In this document: one piece after another, positions 8,732 through 10,212 of the stretch | How positions within the stretch are numbered: position 1 is the stretch's first letter | Layout of the letters: every line of letters begins with the position of its first letter | Position numbers and translations under genes: made by a program | From: a virus | Taxonomy: Duplodnaviria; Heunggongvirae; Uroviricota; Caudoviricetes | Virus record (IMG/VR): IMGVR_UViG_2778261066_000004 | Direction: 5' to 3' (one strand) | Length of the DNA: 10,212 bases | Notes under the pieces: generated by a model | What the model was told of the DNA's origin: nothing | Databases searched by the model: none | The model's input: the letters and a program-made list of their open reading frames with translations, nothing else

Positions 8732-9763
8732 ATGTCTATTAATCCTAAACTTAAGCGTATCGCGCGACGCTATCCAGCGTTATTCCAATATGAGTCCCCC
8801 TATATGGCAAGAAAATTAATAATATTCGGCAACGGTCTCGGTATGGCTTTAGATCCTGCTCACTTCTCCTTAGACAGAGCGTTGGAAGAAATTTGGCATC
8901 GCCCCAATTTTTTAAAAGATATCCACAAGCAACTTATCGAGCGTTGTCTTCAGCGGCAAGGTCCACCAGAAGGAGAACATGAGTTGGATACCCTTCACCA
9001 GGCTGTCACATATTGTAAAGCTCTTGCTCAAATTGGAGAGGGGAACGTGCATTGGCTTACTGAAGATGGACTAAACTTCCCCAAAATTACCGCCACTTAT
9101 ATTCACAAAGTTGCAACCAGGTTGCATAATTACGATAAAGGTTTGCCACAAAGATTCGAAAATGCGCTTGTGGAGTTTGTAAAGAACACACACTCACATA
9201 TCGCGACATTAAACTATGACAAATTATTATACAATTCATTCATAGATAATGATATATTCAACGGGTATGATGGGGTTTTAGTTGATGGGATGCTAAGCCA
9301 CGGATTTTCCTCTGCAGCGCTCGAACGGAAATACAATCGTAGGTTTGGTTATTATTTGCACTTGCATGGTTCACCACTATTTATTAATCAGCATGAAAAT
9401 GTTTTAAAACTTTCACGCTCACAACTTACTCTTGACATAGATGAACCTAGTGAGCATATAGTGTTAACTCATATAAAAAGAAAACCGTCAGTTATAGCAG
9501 CATCTAATGTTCTTTCTACGTACTGGGATTATTTGCAGTTTGCATTATTTGAATCAGAAGAAATAATATTGTTTGGTTACTCTGGTCTCGATATTCACCT
9601 TAACCTGCTTATTCGACCTTACCTAACCTCTAAGCCTTTAAGAGTAATTGAGTGGAGCGGTGCTGGTGAACAAAACGCTCGTGAGATATATTGGAAAAAC
9701 CAGTTGAGACGGGAAGTTACTGTAATTAGGTTGGATAACATCACTGATTTTATTGATTGGTAG
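8732..9763 (+). CDS. Stand-alone SIR2-like (SIR2_2 / defence-type sirtuin) protein, 343 aa; candidate NAD+-targeting defence effector
   Basis: Ordered motifs: Gly-rich loop LIIFGNGLGMALD, ATLNYDKLL (SIR2_2 'TNYD'), YYLHLHGS ('LHGS' with candidate catalytic His), ILFGYSGLD ('GYS…D'). A+T-rich codon usage unlike the phage backbone. Weak SD; alternative start at Met25. Confidence 0.8.
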   Translation: MSINPKLKRIARRYPALFQYESPYMARKLIIFGNGLGMALDPAHFSLDRALEEIWHRPNFLKDIHKQLIERCLQRQGPPEGEHELDTLHQAVTYCKALAQIGEGNVHWLTEDGLNFPKITATYIHKVATRLHNYDKGLPQRFENALVEFVKNTHSHIATLNYDKLLYNSFIDNDIFNGYDGVLVDGMLSHGFSSAALERKYNRRFGYYLHLHGSPLFINQHENVLKLSRSQLTLDIDEPSEHIVLTHIKRKPSVIAASNVLSTYWDYLQFALFESEEIILFGYSGLDIHLNLLIRPYLTSKPLRVIEWSGAGEQNAREIYWKNQLRREVTVIRLDNITDFIDW

Positions 9764-9833: not shown

Positions 9834-9923
9834 GTGCTGGTTCTCAAATGCGCGCTGGCTATTGCGGCTGTAGTGGCAATTTATTGTCTTGCTATTGTTC
9901 TTATGGATCGCCTTTCTGATTGA
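9834..9923 (+). CDS. 29-codon hydrophobic peptide ORF (VLVLKCALAIAAVVAIYCLAIVLMDRLSD), candidate single-pass membrane peptide
   Basis: GTG start with consensus SD AGGAGG (9823-9828) at 5-nt spacing; almost entirely hydrophobic with a charged C-terminal tail; 70 bp downstream of the SIR2-like stop on the same strand. Below the ORF-track length cutoff. Confidence 0.4.
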   Translation: MLVLKCALAIAAVVAIYCLAIVLMDRLSD

Positions 9924-9973
9924 TTTTATATTGGCGAGGTGACGGGAGTTAAGTAGAATTGCTGCGGGTGCTT

Positions 9974-10102
9974 GAGGCTATCTGCCTCAGGCATGAACAC
10001 CAAAAGGCAGATAGAGAAAAGCCCCAGTTAACATTACGCGTCCTGCAAGACGCTTAATGTTAATCTGAGGCCATATCTATGCGACACATAGAGATTAGCC
10101 TC
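9974..10102 (+). other. Cluster of three hairpins (candidate structured RNA / leader) between the peptide ORF and an ORF starting at the window edge
   Basis: H1: gaggc-tatct-gcctc (9974-9988), mutually exclusive with ctatctgcc (9978-9986) / ggcagatag (10006-10014). H2: 15-bp stem with one mismatch, ttaacattacgcgtc / gacgcttaatgttaa, loop ctgcaa (10028-10063). H3: gaggcc…gcctc with inner tctatg/cataga stem (10067-10102). None is followed by a U-tract. Confidence 0.4.
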
Positions 10103-10212
10103 TTACGGACCAAAAGGTCAAGGAGATGTATGGGTCCACCACATATTGCAATTTTTATTCTCTTTTAAAATATATTCCACGGGCGTCATTAGTGCGAGCG
10201 CCTTGTGGGGTC

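What the first reader, a model, noticed from the sequence alone, without database searches (positions are those of the whole stretch)
9974..10102. Three consecutive hairpins with alternative pairings in a ~130-bp untranslated stretch
Seen: H1 has two mutually exclusive foldings, H2 is a 15-bp stem, H3 is a nested imperfect stem. None has a U-tract, so they are not simple terminators. Inference: alternative structures placed before a downstream start (SD AGGAG 10121-10125, ATG 10126 or 10130) suggest an attenuator or riboswitch-like leader, a processing site, or a small structured RNA belonging to the accessory module.
Basis: partly seen in the sequence, partly recalled or inferred. Interest (0 to 1): 0.5.

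Follow-up and report, generated by a model that had tools for sequence, protein, structure and literature searches.

The report
IS-split hok/sok toxin mRNA leader
The three hairpins are the well-known folded 5' leader of a hok toxin mRNA, with its antisense sok antitoxin gene on the other strand, in a prophage; an insertion sequence has cut the leader off from the toxin gene, so the finding is real but ordinary.

Summary
The hairpins are real: the minimum free energy (MFE) is -64.9 kcal/mol, z = -7.0. They are not a new riboswitch or attenuator. Window 9966-10132 (+) matches Rfam RF01794 ("sok") at 108 bits (gathering score 59). The match is on the toxin-sense strand, so it is the 5' leader of a hokD-like type I toxin mRNA.

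- H1 is the tac/ucb stem plus the long 5' stem. Its rival fold is the published metastable 5' hairpin.
- H2 is the complement of the Sok stem-loop. It can extend into ucb/mok-SD pairing.
- H3 is the mok-SD/dcb stem, and it holds the mok AUG.

All three conformers are conserved, with compensatory changes, in 76 hok leaders from Escherichia, Photorhabdus, Kluyvera, Pantoea, Erwinia, Enterobacter and R1-type plasmids.

A Sok promoter is inferred on the minus strand: TTGACC, 18 nt, TAATCT.

Similarity to intact loci stops at 10126. From 10127 the sequence is the end of an IS481-family element. It is inserted between the hok SD and the start codon, with target duplication GGAGA. The mok frame is cut to 29 codons, and hokD and fbi lie outside the window.

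Verdict: an already known system, IS-disrupted, of low interest. One side note: the same IS sits at the same nucleotide in hokB of other strains.

The parts
9931..9959 (+). Predicted hok promoter: -35 TTGGCG (9931-9936), 17-nt spacer, -10 TAGAAT (9954-9959). The predicted transcript start is about 9966.
   Evidence: Promoter scan. 9966 is the first position of the Rfam model and of my covariance model.
9966..10126 (+). hok (hokD-like) mRNA 5' leader, up to the point where similarity to intact loci ends.
   Evidence: Rfam RF01794 at 108.1 bits, E = 2e-24. My model R1 scores 127 bits. BLAST similarity to intact loci ends at 10126.
9966..9973 (+). tac (translational activator) element. It pairs with ucb here, and with the 3' fbi element in a full-length mRNA.
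   Evidence: MFE. Helix 1 is 98.7% paired in 73 distinct leaders. In relatives, fbi CCUCAACGCACCC lies 3' of hokD.
9970..9992 (+). Metastable 5' hairpin of the nascent transcript (9970-9978 with 9984-9992). It is mutually exclusive with the tac/ucb stem and the H1 long stem.
   Evidence: The first 31 nt fold to -19.6 kcal/mol. 89.6% of cells are paired, against at most 49.8% when the partner is slid. One pair varies GC 35 / AU 17 / GU 16.
9978..10014 (+). H1 long stem-loop (9978-9987 with 10005-10014).
   Evidence: MFE. In helix 2, 7 of 10 pairs have changes on both sides; for example one pair reads AU 34 / UA 26.
10019..10025 (+). ucb (upstream complementary box, the anti-SD of mok). It pairs either with tac or with the mok SD.
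   Evidence: Element definitions are from PMC9841398.
10027..10064 (+). H2, a 15-bp stem-loop. Its complement forms the body and terminator hairpin of the predicted Sok RNA.
   Evidence: MFE. In helix 4, all 6 pairs have changes on both sides.
10067..10102 (+). H3: mok SD GAGG (10067-10070) pairs with dcb (10098-10102). An inner stem (10076-10081 with 10087-10092) holds the mok AUG at 10079. This is the Sok target region.
   Evidence: MFE. The outer helix 5 is 95.8% paired. The inner helix 6 is only 53% paired, so it is weakly conserved or poorly aligned.
10079..10168 (+). mok reading frame, cut short. Sixteen native codons run into the IS and stop after 29 codons (MRHIEISLLRTKRSRR|CMGPPHIAIFILF).
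   Evidence: ORF list. The junction at 10126/10127 comes.
10108..10119 (+). Small fourth hairpin between dcb and the hok SD. It overlaps the spacer and -35 box of the sok promoter.
   Evidence: MFE. Helix 7 is 71% paired.
10121..10126 (+). hok Shine-Dalgarno AGGAG. GGAGA (10122-10126) is the left copy of the 5-bp target duplication.
   Evidence: Compare the intact L003 (GGCAAGGAGAAGCAGGCTATG) with L004 (..AAGGAGA|IS|GGAGAAGCAGGCTATG).
10092..10121 (-). Predicted sok promoter: -35 TTGACC (10121 to 10116), 18-nt spacer, -10 TAATCT (10097 to 10092).
   Evidence: Read from the sequence. CAA (the TTG of the -35 box), and A10092 and T10096 of the -10 box, are invariant in 65 leaders. The position matches the R1 Sok promoter TTGCGC-17-TATCCT, which I quote from my own knowledge. 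The -10 box matches only 3 of 6 consensus positions, so the scan does not report it.
10010..10085 (-). Predicted Sok antisense RNA, about 75 nt with both ends inferred. It has a single-stranded 5' tail complementary to the mok SD and AUG, then a long hairpin followed by UUUUCUCU.
   Evidence: Fold of 10008-10088 on the minus strand: -35.1 kcal/mol, z = -7.7. The ends are inferred from the promoter position and the U-rich tract.
10127..10212 (.). Terminal 86 bp of an IS481-family insertion sequence (end TGTATGGGTCCACCACATATTGCAAT). The element is 1096 bp in relative L004.
   Evidence: The transposase scores 221 bits against NF033577 IS481, just below the curated cut-off of 224.
10118..10212 (-). 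C-terminal end of the transposase ORF. It reads out of the IS end and stops at TGA (10120 to 10118), inside the sok -35 box.
   Evidence: Translations.

Best explanation
Window 9966-10126 (+) is the 5' untranslated leader of a hokD-like type I toxin mRNA in a DicA/Qin-type lambdoid prophage. The cis-antisense antitoxin gene sok lies on the minus strand, at about 10085 to 10010.

In intact relatives the leader acts as a programmed folding switch.
1. The nascent 5' end is trapped in a metastable hairpin (9970-9992).
2. In the full-length mRNA, tac (9966-9973) pairs with a 3' fbi element, and ucb (10019-10025) sequesters the mok SD (10067-10070). The mRNA can then be neither translated nor bound by Sok.
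3. After 3' trimming, tac pairs with ucb and the mok SD pairs with dcb (10098-10102). This is exactly the MFE fold found here.
4. That form either allows mok translation, and hok translation coupled to it, or is bound by Sok and cut by RNase III.

In this window the locus is split. An IS481-family element inserted after 10126, between the hok SD and the start codon, duplicating GGAGA. The hok promoter, the leader, the mok start and the predicted sok gene with its promoter are intact. The mok frame ends after 29 codons inside the IS. hokD and fbi are at least 1.1 kb away, outside the window.

Most likely the leader/sok half is a decoupled remnant. The leader RNA lacks fbi, so it would fold directly into the Sok-accessible form and be degraded. 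Hok would no longer be translated through mok.

Basis of each step. Shown here: the identity of the element, its structures and their conservation, and the IS junction. Taken from the literature: the folding pathway. Inferred: Sok expression, loss of coupling, and the fate of the leader RNA.
For: - Rfam RF01794 hit at 108.1 bits (gathering score 59), E = 2e-24, covering the full model 1-157.
- The same model hits intact hok loci on the hok-sense strand and ends at the hok ATG.
- Synteny: relatives share int, exo, dicB, dicA/C, ydaT, DUF977 and SIR2, followed by hokD and rem. The HokD ORF of the intact relative L003 matches PHROG 251 at E = 3e-33 and NCBIfam Hok.
- The fold is significant: z = -7.0.
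- On 76 leaders aligned to a covariance model, the open structure has 82.6% of cells paired, against at most 54.6% when partners are slid. 24 pairs carry changes on both sides, against 8-14 when slid. 0 of 500 shuffles reach the observed values.
- The metastable hairpin has 89.6% of cells paired, against at most 49.8% slid.
- The ucb/mok-SD pairing has one pair that reads AU in 34 sequences and GC in 31. It also has a conserved C.A mismatch in 68 of 69 sequences. In R1 this mismatch corresponds to the position where the A106G mutation locks the closed form (PMC9841398).
- Stepwise folding of growing 5' segments reproduces the switch.
- The mechanism, as described for R1, is in PMC9841398.
- IS junction: similarity stops at 10126. 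L001 and L004 carry the same junction, with hokD directly beyond a 1096-bp IS and the target duplication GGAGA. The junction is present in 74 of 5426 complete E. coli genomes.
Against: - No expression data: the hok and sok promoters, the Sok ends and RNA processing are all inferred from sequence.
- The predicted sok -10 box (TAATCT) matches only 3 of 6 consensus positions and was not called by the scan.
- The inner stem of H3 is paired in only 53% of cells, so that part of the structure is weakly supported or poorly aligned.
- The covariation alignment was fitted to the structure, which favours it. The slid-partner controls mitigate this but do not remove it.
- The window ends 86 bp into the IS. 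Whether a complete IS and an intact hokD follow in this genome is an extrapolation from relatives.
- hokD keeps an SD copy after the IS. Read-through or an outward promoter from the IS could still express it, so 'inactivated' is not proven.
Confidence: 0.93

Rival explanations
1. A riboswitch-like or attenuator leader. It would sense a ligand or ribosome stalling and so control transcription or translation of an ORF starting at 10126 or 10130.
For: Alternative, mutually exclusive pairings do exist. A good SD sits at 10121-10125.
Against: - No riboswitch or leader family is hit, even at E <= 1.
- The alternative pairings coincide one-to-one with the published hok folding pathway.
- The ATGs at 10126 and 10130 lie on or inside an IS end that is absent from intact loci.
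- The resulting ORFs are a 12-codon peptide and a frame antisense to the transposase.
- There is no terminator hairpin with a free U-tract on the + strand.
Confidence: 0.01
2. A still-functional, rewired hok/sok module. The IS insertion does not inactivate the system. hokD would be transcribed by read-through from the hok promoter or from an outward-facing promoter in the IS, and translated from the duplicated SD (GGAGA) independently of mok. Sok, or read-out transposase antisense transcripts, would act only on the leader.
For: - The target duplication regenerates an SD directly upstream of hokD in L001, L004 and L093.
- The hokD and hokB ORFs beyond the IS are intact in those relatives.
- The junction persists in 74 + 37 genomes.
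Against: - Unregulated Hok translation would be lethal. In R1, hok translation depends on mok translation (Thisted & Gerdes 1992, as cited in PMC9841398).
- No outward promoter was identified.
[quoted passage not shown] That fits simple decay.
- It cannot be tested within the window, because hokD is outside it.
Confidence: 0.05
3. An independent + strand small RNA, 'CssrC/sok' as the Rfam name suggests, acting in trans rather than as an mRNA leader.
For: - Rfam types the family as 'Gene; antitoxin' and the hit is on the + strand.
- With the IS in place, the + strand transcript has no toxin ORF attached. It could accumulate as a discrete structured RNA that titrates Sok.
Against: - In every intact locus tested, the model ends at the hok start codon on the hok-sense strand. 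The modelled RNA is therefore the toxin mRNA leader.
- The true antitoxin must be antisense to it (PMC9841398).
- There is no + strand terminator after H3 or H4.
Confidence: 0.02

Closest known systems
hok/sok (parB) of plasmid R1, and the hok mRNA family (Rfam RF01794)
   Same: It has the same ordered elements: the 5' tac sequence GG(G)YGCUUGAGG, a metastable 5' hairpin, ucb AGCCCC, the Sok-complement hairpin, the mok SD GAGG with the same C.A mismatch opposite ucb, dcb GCCUC, GCCUCUUAC, hok SD AAGGAG, and a minus-strand promoter at the homologous place. R1-type leaders (L059-L061) align to the same covariance model at 91 bits.
   Different: H2 is much longer here (15 bp with a 6-nt loop, against a short hairpin in R1 and in the short-H2 chromosomal leaders sampled, e.g. 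L019-L025). The apical part of H1 is shorter. The sok promoter spacer is 18 nt rather than 17. The toxin ORF is separated from the leader by an IS. The host replicon is a prophage rather than a plasmid.
hokD (relF) loci of lambdoid/Qin-type prophages with an intact leader (for example NZ_CP189657, locus L003)
   Same: It shares the same gene neighbourhood (SIR2-family gene, unannotated 29-codon ORF, hok leader, hokD, rem). Identity is about 92% across 10 kb up to position 10126.
   Different: L003 has no IS, so its leader runs straight into hokD (ATG 10205) and on to fbi and the terminator. The window also differs in the H3 loop, the mok N-terminus and H4.
IS-inactivated chromosomal hok loci of E. 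coli K-12 (hokA, hokC/gef, hokE)
   Same: A hok/sok locus disrupted by an insertion sequence close to, but not inside, the toxin reading frame. The antisense gene is still present (PMC2654758; PMC3562002).
   Different: In K-12 gef/hokC the IS186 lies downstream of the coding region and disrupts fbi (PMC3562002). Here an IS481-family element lies upstream, between the SD and the start codon. It severs the promoter, the leader and mok coupling from the toxin ORF.

Membership tests
hok mRNA leader / sok locus (Rfam RF01794) | Score at or above the curated gathering threshold of the covariance model, over the full model length. | tested here: met
   108.1 bits against a gathering score of 59, model positions 1-157 of 157, E = 2e-24.
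hok mRNA leader / sok locus (Rfam RF01794) | tac/ucb stem and the 5' long stem (the open, translatable conformation), conserved with covariation. | tested here: met
   The MFE contains both. Helix 1 is 98.7% paired and helix 2 is 93.6% paired, with 7 of 10 pairs changed on both sides.
hok mRNA leader / sok locus (Rfam RF01794) | Metastable 5' hairpin that sequesters tac in the nascent transcript. | tested here: met
   An 11-bp hairpin of -19.6 kcal/mol forms in the first 31 nt. It is 89.6% paired across the family, with compensatory GC/AU changes.
hok mRNA leader / sok locus (Rfam RF01794) | ucb (anti-SD) able to pair with the mok SD (the closed conformation). | tested here: met
   10021-10027 pairs with 10065-10071. 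One pair reads AU in 34 sequences and GC in 31. The C.A mismatch is conserved in 68 of 69 sequences, as in R1.
hok mRNA leader / sok locus (Rfam RF01794) | mok SD/dcb stem that holds the mok start (the Sok target). | tested here: met
   The outer stem is 95.8% paired. GAGG lies at 10067-10070 and ATG at 10079. The inner stem is only 53% paired.
Functional hok/sok type I toxin-antitoxin system | A Hok-family toxin ORF (about 50 aa) immediately downstream of the leader, overlapped by mok. | tested here: not met
   After the SD the sequence is an IS end. The mok frame stops after 29 codons at 10168, and no Hok ORF lies in 10127-10212. In relatives with the same junction, hokD lies 1.1 kb further on. 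I therefore file this as an IS-split locus, not as an intact system.
Functional hok/sok type I toxin-antitoxin system | A cis-encoded antisense Sok RNA with its own promoter, complementary to the mok translation initiation region. | tested here: inconclusive
   Promoter-like hexamers TTGACC-18-TAATCT lie at the position homologous to R1, and their key bases are invariant in 65 leaders. The minus-strand hairpin has z = -7.7. Expression cannot be tested here, and the -10 box is weak.
Functional hok/sok type I toxin-antitoxin system | A 3' fbi element complementary to tac. | not testable with these tools
   It would lie beyond the end of the window. In relatives L003 and L004, CCUCAACGCACCC, complementary to GGGUGCUUGAGG, lies 3' of hokD.
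Riboswitch or transcription attenuator | A match to a known aptamer or leader family, or a terminator/antiterminator pair with a free U-tract upstream of a conserved ORF. | tested here: not met
   No such Rfam hit at E <= 1. No free U-tract on the + strand. The downstream 'ORF' is an IS junction artefact.

The most novel reading that the evidence does not exclude
The IS481-family element may specifically target the hok SD / sok -35 boundary. It sits at the identical nucleotide, with the same GGAGA duplication, in hokB and in at least three hokD-like leader variants. The resulting orphan 'leader + sok' half, or the IS-proximal hokD with its regenerated SD, may be kept for a function. Possible functions are Sok-based immunity against incoming hokD-type elements, or an IS-controlled toxin switch. 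The alternative is that it is simply decay.
Probability: 0.07. Interest if true: 0.5.

Novelty: already known. Interest (0 to 1): 0.1.

Why it matters
It matters little for discovery. The structures belong to one of the best-studied RNA folding switches in bacteria, and the family is already in Rfam.

Practical value:
- The leader and sok are not annotated in the RefSeq records of the relatives. Readers of raw sequence will therefore keep rediscovering them.
- The Rfam family is named "sok antitoxin" but models the toxin-sense leader. That can mislead strand assignment.
- This copy documents a way of uncoupling a hok toxin from its control region: an IS between the SD and the start codon. It recurs in E. 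coli, with 74 genomes at hokD-like loci and 37 at hokB.

Tried and rejected
- RNAalifold on a plain MAFFT alignment of 65 leaders recovered only the tac/ucb and H1 stems. Indels misaligned H2 and H3. I replaced it with a covariance-model alignment.
- The promoter scan did not call the sok promoter, because the -10 box matches only 3 of 6 positions. The promoter is therefore inferred from homology and from invariant bases.
- The terminator-like call at 10038-10053 (+) was rejected, because its T-rich tail is the paired 3' arm of H2.
- The weak Rfam hits (ceN48 snoRNA, E = 0.07; a reverse-strand 'sok' hit at 16.5 bits) were rejected as chance or as palindrome echoes.
- The 29-codon ORF at 9834-9923 and the truncated mok product have no Pfam hit, and the 29-codon ORF also has none in NCBIfam, PHROGs or PADLOC.
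- A literature search for this IS481-family element in hok loci found nothing relevant.
- Sampling eight other copies of the IS showed three unrelated insertion sites with no obvious shared target motif. The question of target specificity stays open.
- The idea that the hairpins belong to the IS was rejected, because they are present in loci without the IS.

Full report
**Observation.** Folding 9966-10132 as RNA gives four consecutive helices:
- a tac/ucb closing stem (9966-9973 with 10019-10025) around a long stem (9978-9987 with 10005-10014);
- a 15-bp H2 (10027-10036 with 10055-10064, plus 10038-10042 with 10049-10053);
- a nested H3 (10067-10071 with 10098-10102, plus 10076-10081 with 10087-10092);
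- a small hairpin (10108-10111 with 10116-10119).

The energy is -64.9 kcal/mol. Two hundred dinucleotide shuffles average -38.3 +/- 3.8 kcal/mol, so z = -7.0. The alternative folding of H1 is real. The first 31 nt form an 11-bp hairpin (-19.6 kcal/mol). With 65 nt this is replaced by the tac/ucb stem plus the long stem.

**Identity.** Rfam's covariance model RF01794 ("sok antitoxin, CssrC") matches 9966-10132 on the + strand. It scores 108.1 bits against a gathering score of 59, with E = 2e-24, over the whole model. Despite its name, the model is in the toxin-sense orientation. In intact loci it ends exactly at the hok start codon, on the hok strand. Examples are L020 551-703 and L035 556-703, where the hok ATG is at 701-703, and the R1-type L061. 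The finding is therefore the 5' leader of a hok-family toxin mRNA. The true Sok antisense gene lies on the opposite strand.

**Context.** The window is about 92% identical over 10 kb to DicA/Qin-type lambdoid prophages of E. coli. Their gene order is integrase, exonuclease, dicB, repressor/cro, ydaT, DUF977 and a SIR2-family gene, followed by hokD, rem, DUF968, rusA and Q. In the intact relative L003 the leader runs straight into hokD (ATG 10205). Downstream is CCUCAACGCACCC, which is complementary to the 5' GGGUGCUUGAGG; this is the fbi element. The HokD ORF of L003 matches PHROG 251 at E = 3e-33 and NCBIfam Hok models.

**Mapping onto the published mechanism.** For R1 hok/sok (PMC9841398) the pathway is as follows.
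- A full-length mRNA is locked by a tac/fbi stem. In this form ucb sequesters the mok SD.
[quoted passage not shown] That permits mok translation and Sok binding.
- Sok binding leads to RNase III cleavage.
- A metastable hairpin, in which tac pairs just downstream of itself, prevents co-transcriptional activation.

In the window the elements sit at these coordinates:
- tac: 9966-9973
- metastable hairpin: 9970-9978 with 9984-9992
- ucb: 10019-10025
- mok SD: GAGG at 10067-10070
- mok AUG: 10079
- dcb: 10098-10102
- hok SD: AGGAG at 10121-10125

The leader-only MFE equals the open (truncated-mRNA) conformation. The segment 10015-10075, folded alone, gives the closed ucb/SD pairing as an extension of H2.

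**Conservation and covariation.**
- A Hok protein alignment retrieved 80 loci from one genome per species. They include Escherichia, Shigella, Kluyvera, Photorhabdus, Pantoea, Erwinia, Citrobacter, Enterobacter, Buttiauxella and R1-type plasmids.
- I built a covariance model from 65 distinct leaders. It aligned 76 matches.
- For the open structure, 82.6% of cells are paired, against at most 54.6% with partners slid by 1-3 columns. Twenty-four pairs carry changes on both sides, against 8-14 when slid. The covariation score is 0.189, against at most 0.086. None of 500 shuffles reaches the observed values.
- For the metastable hairpin, 89.6% of cells are paired, against at most 49.8% slid. One pair reads GC 35 / AU 17 / GU 16.
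- For the ucb/mok-SD pairing, one pair reads AU in 34 sequences and GC in 31. A C.A mismatch is conserved in 68 of 69 sequences. In R1 this is the position where the A106G mutation creates an extra pair and locks the mRNA shut.
- The inner stem of H3 is weakly supported, at 53% paired.
- Caveat: the alignment was fitted to the model's structure, which favours that structure.

**The antisense side.** On the minus strand, TTGACC (10121 to 10116), an 18-nt spacer and TAATCT (10097 to 10092) sit where R1 has its Sok promoter, TTGCGC-17-TATCCT. The R1 sequence is from my own knowledge and is consistent with L059-L061. The bases that correspond to the TTG of the -35 box and to positions 2 and 6 of the -10 box are invariant in 65 leaders. 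The predicted RNA, about 10085 to 10010, has a free 5' tail complementary to the mok SD and AUG. It then forms a long hairpin followed by UUUUCUCU; its fold scores -35.1 kcal/mol, z = -7.7. Expression is inferred, not shown. The simple promoter scan did not call this site, although it did call the hok promoter TTGGCG-17-TAGAAT at 9931-9959.

**The break.**
- Similarity to thousands of hok loci ends at 10126.
- From 10127 the sequence TGTATGGGTCCACCACATATTGCAAT... is the end of an IS481-family element. Its transposase scores 221 bits against NF033577, just under the curated cut-off of 224, but far above any other IS family.
- In relatives L001 and L004 the element is 1096 bp long and has imperfect terminal inverted repeats.
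- It is flanked by a GGAGA duplication. hokD follows directly..AAGGAGA|IS|GGAGAAGCAGGCTATG.
- The ATGs at 10126 and 10130 are therefore junction artefacts. They open a frame antisense to the transposase and a 12-codon ORF.
- mok is truncated to 29 codons (10079-10168).
- The transposase ORF has no stop codon inside the IS. In the window it stops at TGA 10120-10118, inside the sok -35 box. In L001 it runs 14 codons further.
- The leader/IS junction occurs in 74 of 5426 complete E. coli genomes.

**Mechanistic reading for this copy (inferred).** The hok promoter, the leader and sok are intact, but hokD and fbi are displaced by at least 1.1 kb and lie outside the window. Without fbi, the leader RNA should fold directly into the Sok-accessible form and be degraded. 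Without the mok overlap, coupled Hok translation should be lost. This parallels the K-12 chromosomal hok loci, which were inactivated by IS elements, point mutation or rearrangement (PMC2654758; PMC3562002). The duplicated SD leaves open that hokD is still expressed by read-through or from the IS. I rate that at about 5%.

**Rivals.**
- A riboswitch or attenuator is excluded. There is no family hit, no free U-tract, and the downstream ORF is an artefact.
- A trans-acting + strand sRNA is unlikely, because the modelled RNA ends at the hok AUG in intact loci.

**Side observation.** The same IS sits at the same nucleotide, with the same GGAGA duplication, in the chromosomal hokB locus of strain A39, between trg and cybB. 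This hokB junction is present in 37 complete genomes. Strain UTME-9 carries both the hokB and the hokD-like junction. Three hokD-like leader variants share the junction. Other copies lie at unrelated sites. Independent insertion at one nucleotide in paralogous loci suggests a target preference for the hok SD region, but I did not resolve this. I found no paper describing it.

**Verdict.** But the element is a known hok/sok leader, here split by an IS. Novelty: already known. Interest: 0.1.

Noticed in passing
window 10122-10212; L093 1411-2518; L004 11565-12670; L001 4342-4352: The same IS481-family IS is inserted at the identical nucleotide (..CAAGGAGA|TGTATGG.., target duplication GGAGA, between the SD and the start codon) in two kinds of locus. 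One is chromosomal hokB (strain A39; 37 complete E. coli genomes). The other is hokD-like prophage loci, with three different leader variants (74 genomes). One strain, UTME-9, has both. Other copies of the IS lie at unrelated sites. This suggests either a target preference for the hok SD / sok -35 boundary or recurrent selection for uncoupling hok.
   Followed up: partly
window 10118-10212 (-); L001 4296-5384 (-): The transposase ORF of this IS has no stop codon inside the element and reads out into flanking DNA. In the window it ends at TGA 10120-10118, inside the predicted sok -35 box. In L001 it continues 14 codons further into the hok leader on the antisense strand.
   Followed up: partly
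window 9834-9923 (+): An unannotated 29-codon, strongly hydrophobic ORF (MLVLKCALAIAAVVAIYCLAIVLMDRLSD; GTG start; SD AGGAGG 6 nt upstream). It lies between the SIR2-family gene and the hok promoter and is identical in L003 and L004. It has no hit in Pfam, NCBIfam, PHROGs or PADLOC. It could be a small membrane peptide or a chance ORF.
   Followed up: partly
window 8732-9763 (+): A 343-aa protein with a SIR2_2 domain (Pfam 26.1 bits, just above the cut-off). It has weak PADLOC matches to Aga_SIR2 and PDC-S21 models and no PHROG match. It is a possible prophage-borne defence gene directly upstream of the hok locus.
   Followed up: partly
Rfam RF01794 hits: window 9966-10132 (+), L020 551-703, L035 556-703, L061 542-718: The Rfam family is named 'sok antitoxin (CssrC)' and typed as an antitoxin gene. 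All hits, however, lie on the hok-sense strand and end at the hok ATG. The model describes the toxin mRNA leader, so taking its strand as that of Sok would be wrong.
   Followed up: yes
L007, L011, L026, L030, L045 (relBE-hokD type); L073, L076: These hok genes lack the leader. Unrelated DNA ending ..ACTTCTGCTTTGCGTTGACA is joined directly to GGAGAAG..ATG. That is the same point upstream of the SD where the IS sits in the window. It occurs in two different hok subtypes. It may mark the end of another mobile sequence that uses the same site.
   Followed up: no
L058, L078, L082 (about 60-100 nt upstream of the hok ATG): R1-like hok leaders from Buttiauxella and Enterobacter are interrupted inside the H2 region by a different IS-like end (..TGGGGTCAGTACA|). 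They still score 40-61 bits with the leader model. This is further evidence that hok leaders are frequent IS targets or casualties.
   Followed up: no
L003 4725-4776 (-): The intact relative carries a DicF sRNA gene (Rfam RF00039, 72.5 bits) in its dicB region. The gathering-threshold Rfam scan of the window found only the sok/hok hit, so the window's immunity region apparently lacks a recognisable DicF.
   Followed up: no
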